From Octopus vulgaris (Eukaryota): a DNA stretch of 64,000 nucleotides. Of the stretch, positions 3,189 to 59,612 are shown in pieces. The first letter of the stretch is position 1, and the number at the start of each line of letters is the position of its first letter. The position numbers and the translations under genes are program-made. Below the pieces are notes generated by a model, which worked only from the letters and a program-made list of their open reading frames with translations, ran no database searches and had not been told where the DNA came from. The stretch spans positions 7,130,001-7,194,000 of the forward strand of contig OX597833.1 in assembly GCA_951406725.2 (NCBI GenBank), in the 5' to 3' direction.

Positions 3189-4169
3189 ATATATATATAT
3201 ATATATATATATACGTGTATGAATGTGTGAAGGCACATGGCTTAGAGTTTAGAGCAACAGACTCGCAGTCGAGGGATCGCGGGTTCAAATCTCAGACCGG
3301 GCGATGTGTGTGTTTATGAGCGAAACACCTAAGCCCCACACGGCTTCAGCAGAAGGTAATGGCCAACTTCTCTCACTCTTTCCTCCTGCATCTTGCAGCT
3401 CACCTGAGATGGACCGGCGTCCCGCCCAGGTGAGGAACCTATACGCCAATAAAACCGGGTTCGGCAAAAGAGACTGATAGAATAAGTACTAGGCTTAGAA
3501 AGGATAAGTCCTGGGGTCGATTTGCTCGACTAAAGGTGATGCTCCAGCATGGCCGCAGTCAAATGACTGAAACAAGTAAAAGAATAAAAGAATATAAAAA
3601 CACAGATACGTAAATACATATACCATCATCGCCGCCGCCACCTCCAGCTCTGATTACCTGCCATCACAATCACTATCACCATCCCATCCCCCTAACCACC
3701 ACCACCATCTCCACACCTCCCTATGTTCCTACCAGTTCTCAATTCTGAGACCAATTCTCCACTCTAAATAGCTTCAACACACACACACACACACACGCAA
3801 ACGTTGCAGAATTTCTCTAAAGGCTATGCACGATGGTTCATACAAGAGCGTCTACCTTCAGTTTTGCTGGTGTATGTAATTTATACACACATATGTGTGT
3901 GCTTATATACACATGTATGTAGACAAATAAACAGAAACGCAGAAACAGGCGCGCGCGCACACACACACACACAAACAGATAGAGACAAACAGACAGACAT
4001 ATACCCGTGCGATATTATGTTGCTCCTGTCTGAACTTAAACCCGTTAAATCATTGTTGAAGGTTGTGTCTTTTTTTTTTAAGTCACAACCTTAACATAAG
4101 GGTACAGCTACCCAACCAACATGAAACAGCATAGCAGGGAAACCTAATACATAAACACAAAGGTATATG

Positions 4170-6330
4170 GTACAAAATTAATCTTCTCTGCAATTAATCT
4201 TGAAATTCTAACCGAGGCTTCCGCGCTTCTGGACTGGCGATCCCTGATGACGTTGTCCTCAGTTGACGAACTATGGTCGTCCCTCAAAGCATATGCAATC
4301 TGGTTGACTGACCAAGCAGTTCCCGTTGGGCTTCCCAAGAAGAAGAAACACAAGCCCTTGGTGACGAAGAAGGTTAAACGAGAACTTCGACTCAGAGATA
4401 TTGCTTGGGCTGAATTAAAAAATCTGGATTCAACTGCAGCTTTTGAGGTGTACAAAACTCAACGAGACCGAGCCGTGAAAATTGAAAAGGAAGAACGCTT
4501 CAGATATGAATACAGAATCGCGGCAAACGCCAGTCGCAATCCAAAAACCTTCTTTGCCCATGTCCAACGGAATTCCCGCTTGAACAAACAAATTGCAACG
4601 TTGGTAGACTCAGCAGGCGTATCGATTGAGGACCCTTATCAACAGAGTCAGTTATTTGCCGAGGCTTTTTCAACTATTTTCAAACAAGATGATGGTCGTG
4701 AACCCCCTCCATTTGATAGATCGGTACCTCCAATGCTTAGATTGGTCATCACGCGGGACGAAGTCGAACGCGTTATTCAAGGCCTCGATGTCAACAAGGG
4801 TCACGGCCCTGACGGCATACACCCACGGGTTATCAAAGCGTTGGCTCCGGTCATCTGCGAGCCTTTAACACGTCTATTCAATATGTCATTGGCGACGGGT
4901 GTTATACCTGCGGACTGGAGAACAGTGATAATCTGCCCAATTTTCAAGAAAGGGAGCCGCGAAGACCCGCTTAACTACCAACCGGTTTCCCTGACTTCAA
5001 TAATCAGCAAGATGTTCGAAACCATCCTTAAGAAAAGTATGATGCTCCACCTCCAAAACACAGCCTCTATCTCTGATTCCCAACATGGCTTCGTGCCGAA
5101 GAGATCATGCTTGATCAACTTACTGGTAATGGAAGAATTGGTGACGCGCATCCTCGATGATGGTGATGCTGTTGACATCGTTTTATTGGACTTTGCCAAA
5201 GCTTTTGACTCGGTAAACCACCGCCTATTACTTGTCAAGCTTCAAGCATATAGCTTCCACCCGGATATTGTACGATGGGTTGGTGCCTTCCTCTCAGATC
5301 GCTCCTTCCAAGTCCAAGTTAATGGTTCGCAGTCCGACGTCTCCAGTGCGACCAGTGGCGTGCCTCAAGGTTCAGTGCTTGGGCCCTTATTGTTCTTAGT
5401 CTTCATAAATGACTTGCCCGACGACCTCGCGCAACACACCCTTCTATTTGCCGATGATGTCAAACTGGTCGCTCCTCGCGGTGATATAGAGGATTTTCGT
5501 CGATGCCTCCACCAAGTTTGGAGATGGTCTAACGAATGGGACCTGTGTCTGAACGTGTCAAAGTGCTGTCATCTGCCTGTTGGCTCTTCTCCTGCAACTC
5601 AACTTGATTTCGAGCCGGGTCGTCTGCTGCTGGAGAGGACCGACCAGGTAAAGGACCTGGGTATCTTATTGGATTCCTCCTTTTCGCCTTCGGCCCAGTG
5701 CGTCCATGCTGCCAACAAAGCACGCGGAGTTCTGTTTTTGATTCGACGGTCATTCGGAATGCTCACAGCAGCCATATTCCTACCGCTCTATGTCACGCTG
5801 GTGAGACCCATATTGGAGTACGGGATTCAAGCCTCTTCTCCTTATCTCCTCAAAGACATACAGCATCTCGAAAGAGTCCAGAAGCTGGCTACCCGCATGG
5901 TTCTTGGTCTCAAGCATTTGTCTTATGAAGAAAGGCTAAAGACGCTCGACCTTTATTCTCTCGAAAAACCATGACGCCGTGGTGATCTCATTCTTGCTCA
6001 CAACATCATAAGCGGAAAGTGTAACCTCTCGAAAGAGCTGTTCTTCACTCCTGCTCCAGAGCGTCGGCTGCAGGGTCACTTCGAAAAGCTCTATCTGCGA
6101 CGATTTCATCTCAATCGAAGGAGAGGGGCTTTCTCCGTCCGGGTTGCGGATCCGTGGAATAAGCTGCCGGACGAGATGGTGAAGATGCCGACGACCGCTC
6201 GGTTCAAAGTCTCTCTTGACCACATGTGGCCTGAAATCTTTACATGAACACCACCCTGTACATAACTCCATGTCCCCCTACATGGCCTTGCTTTTTGCTT
6301 TTTGAGCCAAAAAATTAACTAACTAACTAA
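4170..6330 (+). mobile_element. 5'-truncated CR1-clade LINE (ORF2 reverse transcriptase) with one premature stop
   Basis: ORF 4247-5974 has RT motifs GPDGI, QHGF, LDFAKAFDSV, GVPQGSVLGPLLF and FADD. After TGA 5972-5974 the frame continues RRGDLI...FSVRVADPWNKLP... to a stop at 6247. A (TAAC)n tail lies at ~6315-6330. Confidence 0.92.
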
Positions 6331-16816: not shown

Positions 16817-17392
16817 AATACCTATTTCTTTACTACCCACAAGGGGCTAAACACAGAGGGGACAAACAAGGACAGACATAGGTATTAAGTCGATTACATC
16901 GACCCCAGTGCATAACTGGTACTTAATTTATCGACACCCGAAAGGATGAAAGGCAAAGTCGACCTCGGCGGAATTTGAACTCAGAATGTAACGGCAGACG
17001 AAATACCTATTTCTTTATTACCCACAAGGGGCTAAACAAGGACAGACATAGGTATTAAGTCAATTACATCGACCCCAGTGCATAACTGGTACTTAATTTA
17101 TCGACACCCGAAAGGATGAAAGGCAAAGTCGACCTCGGCGGAATTTGAACTCAGAATGTAACGGCAGACGAAATACCTATTTCTTTATTACCCACAAGGG
17201 GCTAAACAAGGACAGACATAGGTATTAAGTCAATTACATCGACCCCAGTGCATAACTGGTACTTAATTTATCGACTCCGAAAGGATGAAAGGCAAAGTCG
17301 ACCTCGGCGGAATTTGAACTCAGAACGTAGCGACAGACGAAATTCCGCTAAGCATTTCGCCCGGTGTGCTAACGTTTCTGCCAGCTCGCTGT
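16817..17392 (-). mobile_element. Head-to-tail trimer of tRNA-derived SINE family C
   Basis: Three units start at 16817, 17002 and 17172. Only the last carries the full head (gcgagctggcagaaacgttagcac...gagttcaaattcc). Other copies at ~15060-15490, 22835-22970, 37660-37865, 44779-45200. Confidence 0.8.
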
Positions 17393-28825: not shown

Positions 28826-28945
28826 CTGTAAAAGTAAACATCAAACTTTCCGGCGCTTTTTCCATTTGTTCTTTGGACAACACATCGTCTCCATCCAGCA
28901 GGTAGGTTGCGGGTACTGATGGGGTAGTTCTTGTTTTCTGTACCA
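28826..28945 (-). CDS. MBD4: MBD4-like exon 2 (N-terminal half of the MBD)
   Basis: [40 protein letters not shown], matching the MBD motif LP.GW.R...QR..G..AGK.DVY. Donor gtaagc. Confidence 0.93.
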
Positions 28946-30382
28946 CTGTAACAACAAAAGACAGACGTGTGTCATCACAAACAACCAACAGAATACAGTT
29001 ATATTGATATTTGATATGGGCGTGGCTGTGTGGTAAGAAGCTTGCTTCCCAACCACATGGTTCTGGGTTCAGTCCCACCTTGGGCAAGTGTCTTCTTTAA
29101 CCTCAGGCCAACTAAAGCCTTGTGAGTGAATTTTGCAAACAAACTGAAACGAGCCCATCGTGTGTGTGTGTGTTTGTTTCCTCCTACTATCGTGTAACAA
29201 CTGATGTCAAGGAGTTTATGTCCCACTAACTTTTGACAAAAGACACCAATAGAATAAGCACTAGACTTTCAAAGAATAAGTCCTGGGGACAATTTCTTCA
29301 ACTAAAATCCTTTAGTAAAAGAATGAAAAAAATACAAACACACATGCAAGCTCAAGGTCTCAAGTTCAGTCCCATTGTGCAGCACCTAGGGAAAATATCT
29401 TCTGTTATAGACCCAGGCTGTCTAACGCCTTGTGAGTGAATTTAGTAGATGGAAACTGTGGGGAAGCCCATCATGTGTGTGTGTGTGTTTTTATGTCTAT
29501 CACCAGCATCAGTTTTTTTGGGGGGTGGGGGTTATGTCCCCATAACTTAACAGTTCAATAAAAGAGACCAATAAAATAAGTACTGGGGTGAATTTATTCA
29601 TGGCAGTGCCCCAGCATGGCCACAGTCCAATGCCTGAAAGAAGTAAAAGCTAAAAGATATACATATACCATGGTCAGTTCATTTTCCAACCCATGCAGCT
29701 TGAGTTCAAGCCCACTCCTTGGACTTTTGAACAACGAATGCTTGGTACTTTGGCCTCGGGTTGACCAGTGCATTGTGAGTGAAGTTTTGTAAATGGAAAC
29801 TGAAAGGAAGCCCATCGCAAGGACCACTTAAGCAATGGTGATGTTTGTGTTCTGCATGAATGACTCAGTGCGGAATAAAGTTTTAGGTTTTATCTTTGAC
29901 TTGTTGCAGTCATTAAACTGTGGCCATGCTGGGGCACCACCTCGTGAAATCTTTAGTTGAATGACTCGACCCCACCACCACCCCTACTCATTCCTTTATT
30001 TATTCTTTTGGTCTCTTTTGCTGAATCCCTATTATGAAAAAAAAAGGTACCAGGAAAAGCATCACATATACCCAGACATATTCACACATGAGTGCAGGCA
30101 TGGGTCTAGAGTTAAGGAATTTTCACCCCAGTTGCAGGGTCCCAGGTTCAGTCCCACTGGTGCTGTTTATTTACAATATTCCATGAACACCTGTTTGGCC
30201 ATTGAGCTTTTCATGTTTAAAGAACTAGGGGAAAATATTTCTTTTCTTGGAAACAGAAGAGGGGTTGGCAACATTGTTCTTCATCCGATCCACGGAAGCA
30301 CAGGAAAGGAGATGTCAAAGTAAATATGGGAATATATCGGGAATTCAGAGAAGTCATTTCTCATACTCTCTTTTTCTTTTTC

Positions 30383-30578
30383 TCTCTTTTTACTTGTTTC
30401 AGTCATTTGACTGCGGCCATGCTGGAGCACCGCGTTTAATCAAGCAACTCGACCCCGGGACTTATTCTTTTTGTAAGCCCAGTACTTATTCTATCGGTCT
30501 CTTTTGCCGAACCGCTAAGTAATGGGGACATAAACACACCAGCATCGGTTGTCAAGCAATGCTAGGGGACAAACACAG

Positions 30579-30631
<53 letters not shown>

Positions 30632-30804
30632 CATATATACGACGGGCTTCTTTCAGTTTCCGTCTACCAAATCCACTCACAAGGCTTTGGTCGGCCCGAG
30701 GCTATAGTAGAGGACACTTGCCCAAGGTGCCACGCAGTGGGACTGGACCCAGAACCATGTGGTTGGTTAGCAAGCTATTTACCACTCAGCCACTCCTGCG
30801 CCTA
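30383..30804 (-). mobile_element. SINE family A, full length
   Basis: Reverse-complement match to 25448-25830. Confidence 0.88.
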
Positions 30805-32185
30805 TAGAAAGATCAACCAACATTAATGTTTTGAAATAAACATGAGATATTCTATGGTGTGACATCGCAGGCAATTGGAACTGTAAGAATTGATTTCCAA
30901 CACCATCACCTCAACATCCTTACCATCATTTCTACCACCACCACCACCACCACCCACATCACTTGTTGGCAACTATGTCTTAATGTCAACTTTTTCCAGA
31001 CTACAAATGGATTGGACAAAAAAAAAAAAGAATTACAAGTGATAATTAGCTTAATTCTAGCTATTAATGAATTATTGATGGTTTTATATATATGTGTGTG
31101 TGGCTAAAGGACATGGCTATGAAAAAAGACGGTACCAAGAGACAGCTGCAATAAGAGAGAGAGGATGGAGAGCAGGGTGGGTGGGTGAGATGCCCATTTC
31201 TTTCTAGCAACTCGGAACCATCTCATCCATTAGCCATTCTATCTCCATTAATATTTTCTCCCCCTCTCCCTGCATTGAACCACCAATTATCTCTCCTCAT
31301 ACACTACACCCCCCCTTCTCCCCACCCCACCAACCACATGTCACACCCCACCCTCTCTCTCTCATGTCCTCCTCCTGTCAACTAGGTCCTCATTCTGATC
31401 CTGCAACTGTCTCTTTCACATCCCTCTACCTGCACCGACTTACGCATCACTGGTCAGTTCCACCCCTTTTCCACCCTTTAACCCCACTCATCTTTACAGT
31501 TTTTGCCTACCACTCATTCCCTATCCCACTTCCCCAACTCTTGCTTGCCCTATATATTCTCGCAAGCCCAAACCCATCTATATCCCTAATTCCTCATTTC
31601 CCATTTATTTCTACTCAATCTCTACCTTCAGGGGCCACCCAGACACCTTGTCACCTCTAGCCGTTTCCAGCCTCACCCAATCCTTCTCACCTCCCCCTCT
31701 TCTAAATGTAAATACCTCCTCTTACTACAGCCATCTGCTCTGCTCTTTTCTCTCATAAATTAACCCCTCGTCTCAATGGCATGCAAAAGCACCCAGAACC
31801 CTCTGTTAAGTGGTTGATGTCAGGAAGGGTATCAAGCTGTAGAAACCGCATCAAAGTATATGTCGGAGCAGGACACAGTCGTTGGACCCATCAGATCCAG
31901 TCAAACTGTCCAACCCATGATGCCAGCAGGGAACACAGACATTAAACTATATATATATATACATACATGTACAATGTACATTTTTATTATTATTTTGCAA
32001 TTTACTTAATCATCAGTATATTATTGTTATTTTATTTTTTATATTTCTATTATATGTAATTTTCTAGATGGTGTAATTTAATTGTTCATTTTGAATTGAT
32101 AAAAGGTGTTTTTTTCTTATATATATATATATATATATATATTTTTCTCTCTCCTTGTTTCTTTCTTGTGTTTCTTTTCTGTGTA

Positions 32186-32223
32186 TCTTTCTGTTGAAGA
32201 GCGTAGGCTCGAAACGTAAAAGA
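32186..32223 (+). ncRNA. Hammerhead-like motif with variant core CUGUUGA
   Basis: ucuuu CUGUUGA a gagc-guag-gcuc GAAA cg UA aaaga. Stem I is a perfect 5 bp, stem II is 4 bp, and stem III is only the palindrome ACGU. The element (~32140-32320) is flanked by (TA)n. Confidence 0.65.
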
Positions 32224-32320
32224 CTTGTTTTATTTATATTCCTGAGCGCCATACTAATACAATTGTTTGTTTGTATTCCACCTGCCTTCGTCTTTTGTTT
32301 ATTTTCATAAAGCTTCCCGT

Positions 32321-32351
<31 letters not shown>

Positions 32352-32562
32352 ATCTTTTACTTGTTTCGGTCATCAGGCTGTGGTCATGCTGGGGCACCAC
32401 CTTCACCACTATCGTTCATAACATTTATCCCCAATATACACCTGCCTACCTCCAACCCCTGCTCATCTCCATCCCTTACTCTCCTCTCTTCCTACCTTAC
32501 CCCACCCCACAGTCTCCAAGCCCTTTCTCTTGGACATACCATCCAGAGGATATGTTCTAGGA

Positions 32563-32709
32563 CAGTGGTTCCCAACAGTAGTTCCCACCCCTTTTATTTA
32601 AATGAGTTTTTCCATGGACCCCTTTTAATATGCTTATGTATACACATAAAATTTTGAGTTTAGTTCATGGACCCCCAGGGGTCCACGGACGCCTGATTGG
32701 GAACCACTG
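32563..32709. mobile_element. hAT-type MITE (147 bp)
   Basis: TIRs CAGTGGTTCCCAA / TTGGGAACCACTG and a perfect 8-bp TSD TTCTAGGA (32555-32562, 32710-32717). Confidence 0.9.
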
Positions 32710-35700
32710 TTCTAGGACCACATCTCCACCATATTTACCTTTCTTACCGGCACCACTCCACCCATATTAAATGCAAGGTAACCATGAAACTCCCCCACAG
32801 CAACAAACCTTTTCCCCATTATACTTTAAACTCTCAGATTCTCACATAAAAGCAACCACTCAACCTGCTATTCCGTCCTTCAGTTAAGGAACCTCTTTAG
32901 ACAACCTAACCTCACCAGTGTTAGTGCCAAGCAGCCAGTACTTTCTGTAAAGTAGTTAGGGGCTAGAAAGGGGAGATAATTTTGAAACTGAGACAGTGGA
33001 GCAGGAAACGGATTTCTGTTGAATCATGCACCTTGTACCGTGGCAGCAGAGAAAACGGATGTAAAAATAAAAGACAATATATGCCAGAATGTATAACACA
33101 CACACTTAGTACAGAGCCATTTCTAGGATGGATATATATTATATATAAACACACATAAAGAACATTTATATAAGTAGCTATATCCTGGTAGTAGTATAAT
33201 TGACGGCGCAGCATGACGTGTCCATATAATAGTGTTTGCATGCCTTGGTTCTGGCTAAAGATACAACTACATAAAACAAAATTCCACAAAGGGAAGTAAC
33301 TCAAAGATGCCCATAGTATGAAATGAAAGAAATCAAGTATGGATACCCATAAACAGTGACTAACACACGCATACACGCAGAAACTATTAAAGATTCAAAA
33401 TTCTCATTTCAATCAAAGAATACCAAAACAAAGAAGCATTCATTTGTGACTCACAAAAGAAAAACAGGGAAACAATGAAAGGAATTTCATTCTGATGCTT
33501 AATGAGGAAATTGTGTCATCGCTAATAAGGGTGCTGACAGCAATTGAGCATCAACCTGGTTGGCTCAGTTGGGGCTGACCCAGGGCTAAACAGCAATACT
33601 TTTTTTTTATAAAACTTTTATCTTTTTACTTGTTTCAGTCATTAGATTGCAGCCATGCTGGAGCACCACCTTGAAAAATTGAATGGATTGACCACTGAAC
33701 TTATGTTTTTTTAAAAGCCTGGTACTTTTACCAAGCTGCTAAGCGACAGGGATGTAAACACACCAACACCAGTTGTCAAGTGCAGGTGGAGAACACACAC
33801 ACACATATATATATATATATCACGTGATCACCATGACTAACCAGACCATCAGATGTTGCTACACATCGCTGGTCACAATGCGCTTTGCATTGTTTTAGCT
33901 AAGCAAGCAGGCCAACAGAAGAAAGAGTGGGAGAAAGTAGCGGCGAAAGAGTACAGCAGGGATCACCACCACCCCCTGCCGGAGCCTCGTGGGGCTTTAG
34001 GTGTTTTCGCTCAATAAACACTCACAATGCCCGGTCTGGGAATCGAAACTGCGATCCTACAACTATGAGTCCGCTGCCCTAACCACTGGGCCATTGCGCC
34101 TCCACACACACATATATATATGTACGACAGGCTTCTTTCAGTTTCAGTCTACCAATCCACTCACAAGGCTTTTGGTTGACCTGAGGCTATAGCAGAAGAC
34201 ACTTGCCCAAGGTGCCACACAATGGGGCTGAACCCAAAACGAAGTGGTTGGGAAGCAAACTCCTTACCACACAGCCACGCCTGCACCTATGTGTGCTGAT
34301 GTAGATTGTCAATGATGATGAAGAAGAGGATGGGAGGGAGGGAGAAGTGAAAATGCCTTCCTTTCTAATATAATTGTTGTTGTTGCCGTTGTAGTGAAAG
34401 GACACAATAATTACAAGACAGAATAGCTACACACACACACACACACACACACGGTTATACAATGATATATATATATATATATATTATAGCACTAACATAT
34501 ACACATGCAATCACACACACACACTACACAATGACAAGTACAAAAGGACACACACATAAAATGACATGTACAACAAGCGCATACACACAGATACATACAC
34601 ACACACACACATACAATGACATACACACATGTACACAAAGATAAACACAGATATATAATGATGCACACACACGCACACACACACACACACACAGAAACTA
34701 CAGCAGAGAGACTAAAAGTCTCAGAATGACATCATCTCACTTCGGCTGATATTGGCAACTTAATGTTGTTGTTGTTGCAACCGTCACCACCACCACCACC
34801 ACCACTGCTACTACTACTATTGTATTAGTCATATGACTAATTCCACACACACACACAAATTATCAGAAAATGAAATTGCCTTCTCACAAATTACTATTCT
34901 AATGCCTTTTAGACTGTGGCCATGCTGGGGCAATTCCCTTTCAGGGTGTTGGCCAAACAGACTGACCATAGAGTATACTTCTTTTTTTTTTTTTTTAAAT
35001 CAGGAACTCCTTTACTGGACTGCTAAGTCATAAGGGATGTAATGAAACCAACACAGATATTGTATTTATTGTGGTTGCTGTTTAACCCTGGGTAAGACTT
35101 GGTAAAGCAGACTTGTAATCAACCACCTTATTTTGTCTGTTGCTATTTAACCCAGAGTCGGACCTAATAAGGCAAATCTATGATCAACAATAATACCTTG
35201 TTATTGTTTAGCCTCAGTTTCCAGCCATGGCAATCCCAACTTATTATTTTTTTTATTCAAACACAATACATCTAAGGCACTGGGTCCCTAACCATTCCAC
35301 CGCCCCGTTTTTCAACTGAAATTAATTTTCCCACAGACCCCAGTTTTTGAAAGTTCTGTCTTCTCAAAAAAAAAAACTGATTACATTAACAACTGACAAA
35401 CTCGTTTGCCCAGTTACATCTCAATTAAAAATTAGAAATAACCCAATAATTAGGCATGTGTGTAATGGAATAATAATTATCTATGTGACAGAGTAATTAA
35501 TTAATTATCCATTTTATAGGGCACCTCTTTTAAAATTTTGAACATAGCTCATGGTCTCCACCCAGTATTCCCTTTGGGGAATTCCAGATAGAGAACAGTT
35601 TATCTAGGACTACATTATTCAATGTAACCTTTTTATTTTCTCCTTTGGTTGGATGGATTTATTTGAAGAAATAGCAAAAACGAAGTGGAGGTGGTCACGT

Positions 35701-36837
35701 CAGCTTCAATAGGAGAATAGGATAAGAGAATGGTAAATGGATGAGAAGAACAATGGAATGGATTCCACGAAAGGAACTGAGAAAGGAGGAGGGGGAGGAG
35801 ATGGAGGAATGACACTGAAGAACATGTTAAGGTGATGAAGTAAGACAGGAAACTGGTTTGGACCAGAATGGCAATGGACAGGAAGTGAAAGAGGAATATG
35901 GTGAACAGCCACCATCATCATTCTAAAGTCTCCCTTCCAAACTTTTCACGGGTCAGAGGAGACGTTGGAGCAGGGTTGTCTATGGTTGGATACCTGGGCT
36001 GACAGCAACCTACATCTTTTTCCAAGCAATGTAATAATATATCAAAGATTTAACGACCCAGATAGAATTATATGGAGAAATGGAAAGAAACAACACTGAC
36101 TGAATGGGCCTTTTTCTTTTTGTCTTTTTCTGTAGTTGTTTTTGTTTTCCTAGACAAATCACACACAATATGTGAAGACACCCCTACAGGCTTTTACAGT
36201 GGACTTTAAGAAATTGACACCATCAGGAGTTGAGAGAGAATTTGTTGTTTGCAATCAATGAACACACATAAAGAGCAAGGGAAATATGAACGAACTCATA
36301 CATATATATATCTGGCCCCCGTGCCGGTGGCACGTAAAAGCTCCATCCGTTCGTAGCCGTTGCCAGCCATGCCTGGCCCCCGTGCCGGTGGCACGTAAAA
36401 AGCACCATCCGTCCGTGGCCGTTTTCCAGCTCCATCTGGCACCTGTGCCGGTGGCACATAAAAAGCACCCACTACACTCACGGAGTGGTTGGCGTTAGGA
36501 AGGGCATCCAGCCATAGAAACACTGCCAGATCAGACTGGGCCTGGTGCAGCCTTCTGGCTTCACAGACCCCAGTTGAACCATCCAACCCATGCTAGCATG
36601 GAAAACGGATGCCGCTAAATGATGATGATGATATATATATATATATCATCTCCATGCTTGCAGGAGTGAGACCAGATTTTTTTGAGGTAGATTTTCTATA
36701 ACTGGATACTCTTCCAGTCACCAAGCCTTACCTGTTTCCAAGCAACGTAATATCCCCATGCCCCTGGCCAAACATGTTTTCACAGAGGACTGGAGACAAA
36801 CAATATTGCTTGCCTGAGAATGATGCTCAGCTACAAC

Positions 36838-37170
36838 CATCATCATCATCATCCAGTATTTTTTAAATCCAGGTTTTGTCCCCATTAACAAGAGTGGCTG
36901 GATATACCTCAATGCCATAGCATCATCCCTTCTCAAGCCAACCCTCCCAATCTCCTCCGCAACCTGTCCCCTCCACATTTTCCTCGGTCTACCTCGCTTT
37001 CGCTGTCCATTTTACCTCAACTCTAGCATCCTCTTCAGAACATGCTCCTCACCCCTCCTCAACACATGTCCATACCACCACACTCCATTCACCCTTACCA
37101 GCCATTCCACCAATCCCTCCACCAACCCCATCAAGTCCTCAGCCCTCTTCTTATCAAACATCAAAATGCC
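36838..37170 (-). mobile_element. Degenerate RTE-type LINE 3' fragment
   Basis: WYGHVLRR...VLKRMLEL...GQRKRGRPRKMW motifs and a (GAT)n tail. Confidence 0.65.
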
Positions 37171-40100
37171 AAAATAAGGGAACACACACACACACACAAC
37201 AGGTTTCTTCCAATTTCCATCTACCAAATCCACTCACAAGGCTTTGGCTAGCCTAGGGTTATAGCAGAAATCATTAACCCAAGAGGTGCCACACAATGGC
37301 ACTGAACCTGACACCACATGGTTGGGAAGCAGAACTGTAATTCTTTCTTTGTATAAGCTTTATCCCAGACACCCTCATCAATACCCCACCCTTGTGTCCT
37401 AAGAATTAAAAGTTTCACTCTTCATGACTTCCTAGTTAAAGGGTGACTCATAGCAAAAGATAAATTGGTCACATGGTTGAACATTCAAAAAGGAGTTGCA
37501 GAGACATCAGATACGTTTGACTCATCAATGTTGTTGCTTAAACCAAAGTCAGCACCGATTCCACAGACCTATTTATTTGATCAAAGGTGCTCTGAACATC
37601 CAGAATTAGTGTGCCCTCGACTCTAACAGATATCACTACCTGCCAACCAAATAATTGTTTCAAATCTTAGCACAACGCCAGCAATTTCAGAGTGGGGGGA
37701 GTCGATTACACCCCCCACCGACTCAAATAGTACTTATTTAATTGACTCCGAAAGGACAAAAGGCAAAGTCGACCTTGGCAGCATTTGATCTCAGAAGATG
37801 AAGACAGACAAAATACTGCTAAGCATTTTGCCTGGCGTCCTAACCATTCAGCCAGCGTGCCACCCTCCACCCCTAAATATTAATCAGAGTTTCTATTGCT
37901 ACACTCTCTCTCTCCTTTTTTCTCTATTAATGAGATGACAAAATAAGATTTTTCTGTCCATCTTCTGTTGGTCTTTTGTTTCATCCTTGAGACTGTGGGG
38001 TCTAGACAAAGGATCCAGTGAAGGATCTAGTCAAAGACAGGGATTCATTTTGTTGGTCTCTTTTGCTAAACTGCTAAGTTGCAGAAGCATAAACAAAACA
38101 ACAATGGTTGTCAAAGAGTGGGGGAGGGAGGACAACAACTAAGAAGCACACACAGAAATACAAAGGGTTTCCACACAGTCTCCATCTACTGAATTCATTC
38201 ACAAAACCTTGATCAGCTCAGGTCTGTAGAAGACAGCAATTGCTCTAGGTACCACACAATTGAACTATGAAAAATGTCAGAGAAAGAAACCTGGCTCTTT
38301 CTCGAAATACATAATATCTAAAGCAAAATTTTTTCAGGGGCCCTATTGTGGATCCCCAATTTATTATTTTGTTACGTGGACCCCAAAAACCTCATATGGC
38401 CCTTCTGGGGCCCATATAGACCCTCGTTGAGAATCACTGAACATGACAGTAACCCCACTTCTGTGTCAAGTTTTAAAATACAAAGGTTATGATCTGGAGG
38501 GGATCTGGCAGCTATTTCTAGCCAGTCAAACTACCATGTAGGGATTTCAGCCAGGCTTCTCTCCTCTAACACCTCTACATAAAGAGAGACAGGGAGAGGG
38601 GGGGATGAGTATATGACTGCTTGATTTGCTAGAAACAGCAGTCATGTGATCCTCAGTTTAAATACAACCCTGCTGAAAAAAAAAAAAGGATTACAGTACA
38701 CAATGAAGCATTAGGCTCAAAACTAGAGGTGGGATGGTCCCAGATGGAAACATCTGGCCAAGGCAGAGCTGAAATTAACAACAAAAACAAGATTCACAGT
38801 CCAACTAAGGAGTGGTCAGGTTTCAACAATCATGACCTCTCCGATGGATAAGGGAATGCTTAGTACTGACCTCTTTTGTTAAGGGTCAGTGAATAGAGAG
38901 AGAAAGGGGATGCACTCTGGTTTCTGTTGGGTGATTCAGGAGGGAGGTGGGGGAAGGAAGGAAGATTAAGTTGGGATGTAGACATGTGAGGGAAAAGTGT
39001 GGGGAGAGAAAGAGAGAATGTGTAAACCAGGCAAACATTTCACAGTTACTAAGTACCAACCCTATTAGGTACACACAATAGATTTCCTGTGGGGTTAAAC
39101 TTCTTACAGGGAGAGAGGGGGTCCTTGGCTTAACGGTAGTCTACTTGTATATATTACACCATACATTAGTATTGCTTGAGATCCCTTGATTGTCCTAGCG
39201 TGGAAGGTGTTTATAAGCCATTTAAGAAACACACAAAAACTTAGATTCACTTCAAAGCGACGAAAATATTTTGACAAATTAAATTTAATTTGTGTGTTTC
39301 TTAAATGGCTTATAAAACACCTTCCACGCTGCAATTGTTTTCGTTCCAGCACACGATCTCAGATCAGGTCACTTGCTATGCAAGTACATCTCCGTGACAC
39401 ACATAAGTTTTGAGATTTATCTCACTGCATTCGAGATACAAGAGACAGTCATAAACGGCTGTCGTGTTGTGCAACCTCACAATGGACATAAAAAGAGGGA
39501 TCGACTGGCCGCAGAGACATTTCGTTTCTATTACGTAAGCTTGCTTTCCAACCGAATGGTTCCCAGTTCAGTCCCACTGCATGGCATCTTGGACATATTC
39601 TACTACAGCCCAAGACTGCGAAAGTGCCACCTTGTGAGTAGATTTGGTAGGCGCAAACTGAAAGGAGCCCATCGTATACTACTTGAAAACCAGTGTTGGT
39701 TCGTTAACGTCCCTGTAACTTTGTGGTTCAGCAAAGAGACTGGTAGAAGATGTACCAGGCTTAGAAAAATAATATACAGGGGTGGATTTGTTAGACTAAA
39801 CCCTTCAAGGTGGTGCCCCAGCATGGCCGCAGTCTAATGACTGAAACGAGATGAACGATAAAGATAACCAAATATTCTACATTTTAGACTTCCAGTGAAA
39901 TTGTATTTAAAACTATTGGTGGTACGTTTACAGACTGACTTTAAAATGACTCTCCCCAGACACAACAGAATATGCTTCAACACACGAACTCATATAAAGA
40001 ATCTTGCAAACCAAATATAAAGTATTGGTTTTATTAAATTTACTCACAGACAGACATTGGTCAGCCTGGGGCTATAACAGAAGGAACTTGCCCAAAATAC

Positions 40101-40572
40101 AGCTCAACTGAAAATCATGTGTGCACATACAGTATGACAAATGTCTACACACATATATACACAAATAACTTAGTGAAAACTTGTTTCTTTGGTTGTCTTT
40201 TCCCTTGTTTTTGATTATTCATCATAATATATAGGCACACATCCACAATTGTGCCGCTTCTCACATCCTTCCTCATAATTTTCAAAGTGTTTAGATTACG
40301 ATTGTATCAGGATTTCATGTGGAAAAAAGAAATCCGTAAAGCGAACACACATAAATACGGATACACATATCACAATGTTTTTTTTTCTCTCAAAACTTTG
40401 ACATTTCGCTTTGTAGATATTTATGTGAGCGCACCCAGCAACCTTTTTTTTTTCTTTTTCCAAATTAAATTCCGATATAACCAAAATCTACATCATCTGA
40501 AGCGCGACGTATGTAGAAAAAGTTCATTTTACGAGGAAACAAATTCAGTTGGGGCACACTTATGTAGGTATG

Positions 40573-40620
<48 letters not shown>

Positions 40621-40702
40621 TCCCGGGTTGATACGGGGTTAACCACAGTAAGTAAGGTACTCAATACATAGCAGAGTAAAATTAATTTATTATATAGAAG
40701 GA

Positions 40703-40750
40703 GCTTCTACAGGACTAGTACTGTTTCATTCAAGAGAAATCTTCAGGAAA
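40703..40750 (-). ncRNA. Type-I hammerhead motif, sense to MBD4 intron 1
   Basis: Minus strand: uuc CUGAAGA uuuc-ucuu-gaau GAAA cag-uacuaguc-cug UA gaagc. Confidence 0.7.
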
Positions 40751-41031
40751 GATTTCTCTTGAATGAAACAGTACTAGTCCTGTAGAAGCTCCTTCTATAT
40801 AATAAATATATATATATATATATATACCAATTGATTTGAGAACATAATCTTTTGTGGAGAATGGCGATTTGACGTCTATATCTAGCATGTTGACTGTCCA
40901 CTTTTCGTGTTCAGTCCTTAATTGGTATATATAAATATTTTAATCTTCGGATTCTTTTTTAATATGCTAGACCACTGGTTTTAATTGACTAATATCAATT
41001 TCTACCCTTAATTAATTTTATATATATATAA

Positions 41032-41082
41032 AGCTTCCTGAAGATTTCTCTTGAATGAAACAGTTCTAGTCCTGTAGAAGCT
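41032..41082 (+). ncRNA. Type-I hammerhead motif
   Basis: agcuuc CUGAAGA uuuc-ucuu-gaau GAAA cag-uucuaguc-cug UA gaagcu. Stem I is 6 bp, stem III is 3 bp, the GUA triplet ends at 41076, and AAUAAA follows downstream. Confidence 0.8.
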
Positions 41083-41165
41083 CCTTCTATATAATAAATT
41101 AATTTTACTCTGCTATGTATTGAGTACCTTATTTACTGTGGTTAACCCCGAATCAACCCGGGACC

Positions 41166-41204
<39 letters not shown>

Positions 41205-42531
41205 TAATATCGAACAGTGAGAATGGTGCTCAACAAAGTACATAAACGTGTGTGTACTTTATGAAGTGGAAGATAAATAAAGTCTATTGTTCTACGGATT
41301 TACATTTCATTCGAAACAAAAACATTCCCTGCACACGGTGTGATTCCACGAGACGTGTACCAATAATGGATCCGTTTATTTCAGTACAGAAAACCAATAA
41401 CAAATCATTATATAATCTATAGATCAGCCCTCCTTCCCTGCCACCCCATCTAGATCAGTAAAGGGGTAGAGTGGCGAAGGTAGGTCTCAGAGTTCAACGT
41501 CCCGCATTACGGTTAAAGGATTAACGGTTGTTGTGTTTCTTTCGGCGGACCCCTTTAGGGCTTTAGGGTCGGGGAAGTCCCTTGAATTGGGGTCAAAGGT
41601 CCTCTGAATGCACCAGTTGGTCTTCTTGTCACGTTGAAGCAGGACGATGTGCCTGAATTCACGTTGTAATGTTTACAGCGGTTGTTGAACTCCAAAATGG
41701 AGGAGAGAGACGAACAAGTGCCCCAGATATCTGTGTGGATGTGTGTGTGTGTGTGCACGCATTTCTGTGTCTGTCTCTCTTTCTCTCTATGCTGCATGTA
41801 CGTAGAAGAGTTTTGTAATAGCCATCCTTCGAAGTCCCTAATCACATGGAGAGAAAAAAAAGTACGGAGCTGGGGGGGGGGGGTGGGGCTATATGTACAC
41901 ACACCCGCACGCAGTATTATATATACACGTACACAGTTATAAATATATGTATATACACACACACACATACACAAATATACTAAAAAGATAGTTTACAGGT
42001 TTCAGGCTGCAGCAATTCTGGGGCAAGGGTTCAGTGGACCACATCGACCCCATTACCAGAATATCTAACACCAATTCCTCTCACCCAGTTCAGTCAAACA
42101 GACAAGTGCTTGCAACGGATCTGAACTGGCGAACCAAACAGCCGTAGACCGATGGCTTAACCACACACCCAATTCGTCTCCACGAAACTCAAGTTTCATC
42201 ATCGAAATAAATATTTTTTTATGCTACGTGGAAAAGCATGAATACCACACATACTCGTTCGTTTATATGTGTATCATTCTTTTATATAGAAATCCTCTCC
42301 GTTGGTGATCTCGGCGATCAGGTTTCAATTCCGTGACAGGAAGAAGCTACATGGGAGTGGCATGAATGTCAAAAAATCATCTTTGGAGCACATCAAATGC
42401 TTTATAAAATATCTTTAATATACACATAACGATGCACACACACACACACACACATATATATGTATATAGGCAGGCTGTCAACATTCTAACGCATATACAC
42501 ACGACTTTCTATTATGTAAGTTAAAGCGATT

Positions 42532-42562
<31 letters not shown>

Positions 42563-42986
42563 CACACACACACAATCTATAACATACATTTCAGCATATA
42601 CACATACCATTCATAAAACTGAATACACCCATAAAAGTACATACATACACATCATTGTGTGTATACATAGATGTATATATATATGTATATATATACACGT
42701 AAGCATAAAGTACGGTAAAATTTACTTAAAGTACATTGTGTGTAGAAACAGGAAGTAAATAATATATCTTGCGTATATATACATACATACATACAGAAAT
42801 ATATGTGTGTATATATATGTATGTATATTACATAAAAGTATGTGTGTATATAAATGGAAAGTTATAGAAAAAGTGAGTGATGTATAACAGAGATAAACAA
42901 CAATTATAGATACAACGATGGTTGGGTTAATGAGGGTAATTATCTCTGATATTCTTGAAACTAATTAAGAAAAACTTTTTCCTCAC

Positions 42987-57986: not shown

Positions 57987-59323
57987 GTTATGAAATGAAA
58001 AAAGGGGGTCGAATTAATTAATTATTAATAAATTCGCCCAAGCAGTATTCGGTATGTAAAGACCATTTACGGTATATTTGAAGTATTAATTTATAAAAAT
58101 ATGGTAAAGTAAAAGAATTCACTTTACCACACACCAAACTTTTCAGAAATAGCAGCCAAAAATTTGGCTATTTCTTCAACTGCAAATAAAAGTCTCCAGA
58201 CAATGCATACTCAGAAAAATAACTCACATAGGAATAAGGGAAAAACAATGAAAGATCACATCCATATACGATACCCGAGGACAGTCTGTTTCTGGATTTG
58301 TGGGTAAAACGCCACTTTTCCTTCATCAGCTCAGAGATTTCTTCTGATTTAGATTTGAAAATACTAAGAATCAAACATACCCGTCCGATATCTGTAACAT
58401 CGGACAAACCATGCCAGACACCCAGTACTAGCGAATCCAAAAATACGAATGAGATCTATTATTCTCCCTGTCCACCCACGTGAGTCATAGAGCATTCCAT
58501 TTCTACAGAGGTAAAAACTGCAGTTCAAATTCTTGGAGAGAAAGTTTTATATTGTTATGAAATGAAAAAAGGGGGTCGAATTAATTAATTATTAATAAAT
58601 TCGCCCAAGCAGTATTCGGTATGTAAAGACCATTTACGGTATATTTGAAGTATTAATTTATAAAAATATGGTAAAGTAAAAGAATTCACTTTACCACACA
58701 CCGAACTTTTCAGAAATAGCAGCCAAAAATTTGGCTATTTCTTCAACTGCAAATAAAAGTCTCCAGACAATGCATACTCAGAAAAATAACTCACATAGGA
58801 ATAAGGAAAAACAATGAAAGATCACATCCATATACGATACCCGAGGACAGTCTGTTTCTGGATTTGTGGGTAAAACGCCACTTTTCCTTCATCAGCTCAG
58901 AGATTTCTTCTGATTTATGACTCACGTGGGCGGACAGGGAGAATAATAGATCTCATTCGTATTTTTGGATTCGCTAGTACTGGGTGTCTGGCATGGTTTG
59001 TCCGATGTTACAGATATCGGACGGGTATGTTTGATTCTTAGTATTTTCAAATCTAAATCAGAAGAAATCTCTGAGCTGATGAAGGAAAAGTGGCGTTTTA
59101 CCCACAAATCCAGAAACAGACTGTCCTCGGGTATCGTATATGGATGTGATCTTTCATTGTTTTCCCTTATTCCTATGTGAGTTATTTTTCTGAGTATGCA
59201 TTGTCTGGAGACTTTTATTTGCAGTTGAAGAAATAGCCAAATTTTTGGCTGCTATTTCTGAAAAGTTCGGTGTGTGGTAAAGTGAATTCTTTTACTTTTA
59301 CCATATTTTTATAAATTAATACT
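57987..59323. mobile_element. Hammerhead-bearing element: 567-bp unit, partial tandem copy and inverted copy, inside (TA)n
   Basis: Unit 57987-58553, direct partial copy 58554-58917, inverted copy 58917-59323. Hammerheads at 58275-58334(-), 58841-58900(-) and 59071-59130(+). Confidence 0.85.
59071..59130 (+). ncRNA. Type-I hammerhead motif, sense to STRIP intron 5
   Basis: cugag CUGAUGA a gga-aaa-gugg-cguuuuac-ccac-aaa-ucc a GAAA cag-a-cug UC cucgg. The canonical GUC triplet ends at 59125. Confidence 0.8.
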
Positions 59324-59612
59324 TTATATATATATATATATATAGCTATATATACATGAAAATATGAATACTAATAAAATAATATTCAGCAAGAATAAAG
59401 CCCCATTTAGGTTGAATTAGAAATATATAAAGCAGGTGTGCATGAAGTATGATCATTGCTAGAAATAGCAGCCAGCAAGTTTATGGCACTATGTAGAGCT
59501 TCACTGAATATTTACAGGCAGAGATATGTGCAGGTGGTGAATATAGGAAAATTCTGTCATACCTCTACGGAGACCGTTAGAGGAATAAAGGACAGCTCAT
59601 AGCGCCATAAAC

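What the first reader, a model, noticed from the sequence alone, without database searches (positions are those of the whole stretch)
40616..41168. Triple hammerhead arrangement in MBD4 intron 1, with the sense copy shielded by antisense copies
Seen: (TA)n - inverted copy (40616-40750, core on the MBD4 sense strand) - truncated direct copy (40749-40806) - (TA)n - full unit (40828-41168, motif 41032-41082) - (TA)n. Stem III plus loop is near-palindromic (cagtactagtcctg). Inference: in the pre-mRNA the antisense arms are made first and can pair with the ribozyme, so the inverted layout may neutralise the element in introns and create an ADAR substrate.
Basis: partly seen in the sequence, partly recalled or inferred. 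Interest (0 to 1): 0.7.

Follow-up and report, generated by a model that had tools for sequence, protein, structure and literature searches.

The report
Self-masked Penelope-type hammerhead in intron
This is an ordinary head-to-head insertion of an abundant octopus repeat, likely spread by Penelope-type jumping genes: its one ribozyme motif on the MBD4 message strand is shortened and predicted to be zipped shut by its own mirror copy, which is likely a by-product of how these elements insert, not a device evolved to protect the gene.

Summary
The layout is real and lies in the first coding intron of octopus MBD4 (minus strand). 'Triple hammerhead' overstates it. There is one whole type I motif (41032-41082, antisense to MBD4), one sense motif with stem I cut to 4 bp (40704-40750), and one fragment lacking the CUG box. 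The sense motif is predicted to be buried: the hammerhead fold costs 67 kcal/mol in context against 5 alone, so masking is credible. But this is the published Penelope-like footprint: partial tandem, inverted 5'-truncated copy, one-sided tail, (TA)n target. The core matches Hydra-clade hammerheads. The family is very abundant. Of 13 head-to-head joints from other copies, 9 keep no whole ribozyme to shield, and antisense-first order follows from any head-to-head joint. Cleavage, RNA ends and editing could not be tested (contigs only). The scan noted self-masked hammerheads before on other DNA of this genome. Verdict: new member of a known kind.

The parts
40575..40615 (.). Left (TA)n microsatellite, likely target site
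40616..40749 (-). Inverted 5'-truncated copy of the element's 3' end, with tail; sense to MBD4
   Evidence: 97% to 41035-41168
40704..40750 (-). Sense hammerhead motif: CUGAAGA from 40746, GAAA from 40727, predicted cut after 40708; stem I only 4 bp
40744..40749 (.). Head-to-head junction: 5-nt loop, one shared base at 40749
40749..40807 (+). Direct fragment (equals 41041-41099), no CUG box, no tail; 59 of 59 complementary to the inverted arm; ends at a recurring family 3' end
40808..40827 (.). Middle (TA)n
40828..41168 (+). 341-nt direct copy: non-coding body, hammerhead and tail; antisense to MBD4
   Evidence: (no open frame)
41010..41103 (+). Whole type I hammerhead with extended helix I (core 41032-41082, predicted cut after 41076), Hydra-type U.U at the base of stem II
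41100..41168 (+). 69-nt tail between the two recurring 3' ends
41169..41202 (.). Right (TA)n microsatellite
28946..42986 (-). MBD4 first coding intron (host)
57987..59332 (-). Second, unrelated hammerhead element with the same layout in a STRIP1 intron (comparison case)

Best explanation
This is a copy of a high-copy, non-coding repeat with a Hydra-type hammerhead motif, likely inserted into a (TA)n run by a Penelope-like enzyme that would copy the RNA onto both cut DNA strands and join the two copies head to head, and its sense motif is predicted to be masked in MBD4 pre-mRNA as a likely by-product. Shown: the layout, the host intron, the high copy level, the recurring 3' ends and the varied head-to-head joints. 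Inferred: one two-armed product (40616-40807) primed at two fixed RNA start points (41168 and 41099) from one template. Beside it lies a 5'-truncated copy (40828-41168), likely from a second template, either from a second insertion into the same microsatellite or from a template jump. Predicted: in pre-mRNA the 59-bp hairpin zips as it is made and the far arm extends it to 134 bp, so the shortened sense motif never folds and MBD4 splicing is unharmed. The duplex is likely edited by ADAR as a bystander.
For: Layout equals the published one: partial tandem, inverted 5'-truncated copy and one-sided tail (PMC8557442); opposite-strand hammerhead pairs 100-700 bp apart (PMC4209133); head-to-head joints with palindromes (PMC3846280). 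The Anolis enzyme extends both strands from two start sites that define the tail (PMC11167929). Hydra elements target (TA)n; 14 of 26 Hydra hammerhead rows share the U.U pair at the base of stem II, and Penelope-13_HM carries motifs on both strands through an inverted copy. Summed contig depth is about 1e5-1e6 over the element against about 5-50 on unique flanks in 4 runs of 3 species labels (rough, not a copy number). 13 of 16 joints are head-to-head joints, 7 of them in one run, so they come from other loci; 9 of 13 keep no arm with a whole core. An inverted arm precedes 41031 in 20 contigs of X3, and (TA)n follows 41099 in 12 and 20 contigs. The two arms share a letter at 41067 that is not listed as a family variant at 10%, and the inverted arm and full unit differ at 41132, where the family segregates. 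Fold penalty 66.7 against 5.0 kcal/mol.
Against: No autonomous partner was found: the unit has no open frame, no genome is held, and the Hydra-1_Obim hammerhead differs in sequence. The tail (69 nt) is longer than the 30-40 nt in print. The two-template reading is weak on divergence alone: 0 of 59 differences has P=0.17. Both elements in the window sit in the orientation that masks the sense motif, which a selective filter would also give. All folding is equilibrium prediction without tertiary contacts or proteins. The joint list is the tool's best-supported subset.
Confidence: 0.75

Rival explanations
1. Selective filter: inversion arises mechanically, but in introns copies persist mainly when every sense ribozyme is masked by an upstream arm, so the layout works as an off switch that lets the family live in genes.
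For: 2 of 2 elements in the window fit. The site is 11.8 kb before the acceptor, so a cut would precede splicing; an intronic ribozyme lowers Cpeb3 output (PMC10919898, passages). Retrozymes are modestly depleted from Xenopus introns.
Against: n=2, chance 0.25. The sense motif is weak even alone (5.0 against 2.3 kcal/mol). Such ribozymes often cut poorly: 1 of 9 Xenopus dimers cut; the Anolis one needs its protein; minimal ones are slow. Plain antisense bias of the intact copy gives the same pattern.
Confidence: 0.2
2. The short direct arm arose by fold-back self-priming of the first cDNA, not by priming on both target strands.
For: Arms are 59 of 59 identical, with a 5-nt loop and one shared base. 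Self-priming was proposed for palindromic joints. Many other joints have their two inner ends close together.
Against: The arm stops exactly at 41099, a recurring family 3' end followed by (TA)n, which fold-back copying does not predict.
Confidence: 0.2
3. The 292-nt spacing marks a true tandem retrozyme monomer copied from a circular RNA in one event.
For: The spacing lies in the 170-400 nt range of metazoan retrozymes. The family is present in two runs guessed to be RNA.
Against: Arm and unit carry different family letters. Other copies continue upstream of about 40836 with other sequence (loose ends), so the unit looks 5'-truncated. No go-back joint was listed, though the middle (TA)n could hide one.
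Confidence: 0.2
4. The structure has been co-opted to regulate MBD4, for example as an editing-controlled switch that unmasks the ribozyme.
For: It is the most identical long inverted pair in the intron (98%, next best 72-86%).
Against: It is one of very many young copies. Editing would also hit the core adenosines and likely destroy the motif (inference). No conservation of the insertion at this site could be shown.
Confidence: 0.03

Closest known systems
Hydra-clade Penelope-like elements and their hammerheads (Craig et al. 2021, PMC8557442; passages, section 11 and parts of the supplement read)
   Same: (TA)n target; type I motif near the 3' end; U.U at the base of stem II (14 of 26 rows); stem III arms and cut-site A as in Hydra-1_aMil, Penelope-1_NV and Penelope-1_SK; 5' inverted copy as in Penelope-13_HM.
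   Different: No RT or endonuclease frame here; stem II only 3 bp; loop III 8 nt; sequence unlike Hydra-1_Obim.
EN+ Penelope-like insertion footprint (PMC8557442; PMC3846280 passages; PMC11167929 passages and section 3 part 2)
   Same: Two direct and one inverted terminal copy, head-to-head joint, one-sided tail between two start sites.
   Different: Tail 69 nt, not 30-40; a (TA)n run lies between the direct copies; no target duplication can be read inside (TA)n.
Animal non-LTR retrozymes (PMC7229834 passages and section 14; bioRxiv 10.64898/2026.07.22.740005 parts 1-3 of 5)
   Same: Short, AT-rich, non-coding, high-copy repeat with a type I hammerhead; unit about 300 nt.
   Different: No two tandem units with whole motifs at this locus; no circle shown.
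Minimal PLE hammerheads acting as dimers (PMC4209133, parts 1-2 of 4)
   Same: Palindromic stem/loop III; motifs on opposite strands close together.
   Different: Stem III has 4 bp and could form as a monomer; stem II is short; no G10.1-C11.1 pair.

Membership tests
Type I hammerhead ribozyme | CUGANGA, GAAA and NUH core with three stems, open at stem I | tested here: met
   met by 41032-41082 and 40704-40750; not by 40749-40807
Type I hammerhead ribozyme | G10.1-C11.1 pair | tested here: not met
   U.U here; the same in 14 of 26 Hydra rows, so a clade trait and not decay
Type I hammerhead ribozyme | Match to an Rfam hammerhead model | tested here: not met
Type I hammerhead ribozyme | Self-cleavage | not testable with these tools
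   bench test; only contigs were available
Penelope-like insertion | Partial tandem plus inverted 5'-truncated copy | tested here: met
Penelope-like insertion | One-sided tail between two recurring 3' ends | tested here: met
   41099 recurs; 41168 is shared by inverted arm and unit; length 69 nt
Penelope-like insertion | (TA)n target | tested here: met
Autonomous PLE (Hydra clade) | RT plus GIY-YIG frame | tested here: not met
   no open frame in six frames of the unit; not filed as autonomous
Autonomous PLE (Hydra clade) | 3' end shared with a full-length Hydra element | tested here: inconclusive
   no string match in the Craig supplement; Hydra-1_Obim differs; no genome held
Non-LTR retrozyme | Two or more tandem units with whole motifs | tested here: not met
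   upstream direct copy lacks the CUG box; applies to this locus only
Non-LTR retrozyme | Short, non-coding, high-copy unit | tested here: met
Non-LTR retrozyme | Circular monomer RNA | not testable with these tools
   contigs only; no go-back joint listed

The most novel reading that the evidence does not exclude
The head-to-head inversion that Penelope-like enzymes make is a built-in, orientation-dependent safety catch. Selection would then sort intronic copies by strand, and that bias would be genomic proof that these ribozymes cut pre-mRNA in living cells.
Probability: 0.2. Interest if true: 0.55.

Novelty: new member of a known kind. Interest (0 to 1): 0.22.

Why it matters
As one locus it matters little: a young repeat in an intron, in a layout already in print. 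It would matter if the strand asymmetry holds genome-wide. Whether Penelope-type hammerheads cut in vivo is open (PMC8557442 calls their function unclear; PMC11167929 saw no reads at the cut site), and a count of masked against unmasked intronic copies in an octopus assembly would test this cheaply. These perfect fold-backs may also feed the heavy A-to-I editing of octopus introns.

Tried and rejected
Genome-wide counting was not possible: no genome is held. Rfam gave no hammerhead match; the microRNA hits are generic hairpin matches below their cut-offs. No RNA holder was listed with certainty, and all 24 runs are contigs, so RNA ends at 40708, strand and editing could not be read. Letter differences in the RNA-guess runs cannot be told from family variation. 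Presence or absence of the insertion in other individuals is unresolved: no listed contig spans the (TA)n flanks. Coding remnant: none. Kinship of the two window elements: no significant match. Rejected: 'U.U at stem II means decay' (clade trait); 'antisense first shows design' (geometry). Inner arm ends cluster near the predicted cut (11 of 26 within 41070-41079; 8 of 13 joints, P about 0.02), but the window was chosen afterwards, the list is filtered, ambiguous mapping trims its lower edge, and fold-back at stem III explains it equally; kept as a hint only. Searches for a paper on masking of intronic hammerheads by an inverted arm (listings only) showed none. Look-ups of this sequence in earlier scan notes were blank.

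Full report
Observation. The inverted copy 40616-40749 matches 41035-41168 at 130 of 134 bases. The direct fragment 40749-40807 matches 41041-41099 at 58 of 59 and the inverted arm at 59 of 59. The host protein is 99% identical over the query exon to an Octopus vulgaris MBD4. Its coding exon 1 maps to 43033-42987 and exon 2 starts at 28945 on the minus strand, with GT/AG ends. The element lies in a 14.0-kb first coding intron; an untranslated upstream intron is not excluded.

The motifs. A descriptor finds 5 hammerheads in the window against a mean of 0.07 in 100 shuffles: two here and three in another element. The plus motif has a 6-bp stem I extended by distal helices over 41010-41103, a 3-bp stem II under a U.U pair, and a 4-bp stem III. 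The minus motif keeps 4 bp of stem I, because the junction cuts its 5' strand. The direct fragment lacks C3-U4-G5. So there are two motifs, one of them shortened, not three. Rfam has no match. I first read U.U as damage. The supplement of Craig et al. 2021 (PMC8557442) shows it in 14 of 26 Hydra-clade rows, with similar stem III arms, (TA)n targets, and one consensus with motifs on both strands. That lead came from earlier scan notes. The listed octopus Hydra element has a different hammerhead sequence, so the partner is unidentified.

The family. Contigs of four runs under three species labels give summed depth of about 1e5-1e6 over the element and about 5-50 on unique flanks; the tool warns this is not a copy number. 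Of 16 joints (15 listed, one more in table 5c), 13 join the inverted arm to the direct unit at other breakpoints; I left out two internal deletions and one joint that starts in the direct fragment. Seven come from one run, more than two alleles allow, so they are other loci. In 9 of 13 neither arm keeps a whole core, in 3 one does, in 1 both. On the unit alone, 20 contigs of run X3 show an inverted arm before 41031. (TA)n follows 41099 in 12 and 20 contigs, and also follows 40938 and 41030. The short direct copy therefore stops at a normal family end. The letter shared by the two arms at 41067 is not listed as a variant at 10%, while the arm and the unit differ at 41132, where the family segregates (14% and 41% by depth in two runs). 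This suggests two templates, though divergence alone is not significant (P=0.17).

Mechanism. The layout is the published footprint (PMC8557442; PMC4209133; PMC3846280). The Anolis enzyme nicks and extends both strands from two RNA start sites that define the tail (PMC11167929). I infer a two-armed product primed at 41168 and 41099 and joined head to head, beside a second truncated copy in the same microsatellite. Fold-back priming and a tandem retrozyme monomer are rivals. Earlier scan notes reached the same reading for other families; they are unchecked and not independent support.

Masking. On the MBD4 strand the hammerhead fold costs 5.0 kcal/mol alone and 66.7 in the nascent element. The near arm captures 9 of the first 12 and 40 of 43 motif bases as they emerge (computed at 20 C). 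The order alone shows nothing, since a head-to-head joint puts an antisense arm first on either strand.

The strands are not equivalent. A second, unrelated element at 57987-59332, in a STRIP1 intron on the plus strand, behaves alike: 106.8 on the host strand, 11.7 for the last motif on the other. Both sit the safe way round; chance is 0.25, and plain antisense bias of the intact copy predicts the same. Against a need for shielding, these ribozymes often cut poorly: 1 of 9 Xenopus dimers (bioRxiv 10.64898/2026.07.22.740005), protein-dependent in Anolis, slow minimal forms. A mussel retrozyme does cut at about 0.1 per minute (PMC7229834). Unchecked scan notes mention sense motifs in other introns.

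ADAR. The 134-bp duplex is the most identical long inverted pair in the intron, and young repeats are the main editing targets in metazoans, octopus included in the survey (bioRxiv 10.1101/2020.01.19.911685, passages). Editing is likely but ordinary and was not testable: all 24 runs are contigs.

Papers seen: PMC8557442 passages, section 11 and supplement excerpts; PMC4209133 parts 1-2 of 4; PMC11167929 passages and section 3 part 2; PMC3846280, PMC13282606, PMC10919898 and the editing preprint as passages; PMC7229834 passages and section 14; the retrozyme preprint parts 1-3 of 5, its supplements not seen (they may bear on intron strand bias). Four searches (listings only) showed no paper on masking by the inverted arm.

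Verdict. A real, ordinary Penelope-type insertion; masking predicted; purpose unproven. New member of a known kind, interest 0.22.

Noticed in passing
window 57987-59332: Second hammerhead family in a STRIP1 intron: two tandem motifs on the minus strand (58895, 58329; spacing 566) and one in a 417-nt inverted arm on the plus strand (59076), between (TA)n runs; A.A at the base of a long stem II.
   Followed up: partly
window 40938, 41030, 41099: The family has several recurring 3' ends, each after a TA-rich stretch and followed by (TA)n, as if the target primes at internal TA-rich sites of the RNA.
   Followed up: partly
window 41032: Many contigs (31 in X3, 16 in X1) carry a different sequence upstream of the hammerhead: a second family or subfamily shares this 3' module, a possible route to the autonomous partner.
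   Followed up: no
window 41070-41079: 11 of 26 inner arm ends of other copies fall near the predicted cut; could record cutting in vivo or fold-back at stem III; ascertainment is uncontrolled.
   Followed up: partly
window 41116-41127: A short stretch of the tail resembles the 3' end of coral Hydra-2_Amil; one case, may be chance.
   Followed up: partly
window 40463-40504: A different repeat (depth about 1e3-1e4, loose ends on both sides) lies just left of the element.
   Followed up: no
window 4148-5974: 608-aa open frame with a reverse transcriptase domain (PF00078), likely a LINE, downstream of MBD4.
   Followed up: partly
window 43033 and 50748: MBD4 (minus) and STRIP1 (plus) start divergently, 7.7 kb apart.
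   Followed up: no
window 16852-17343: Three tandem 170-nt copies at 97% identity, SINE-like.
   Followed up: no
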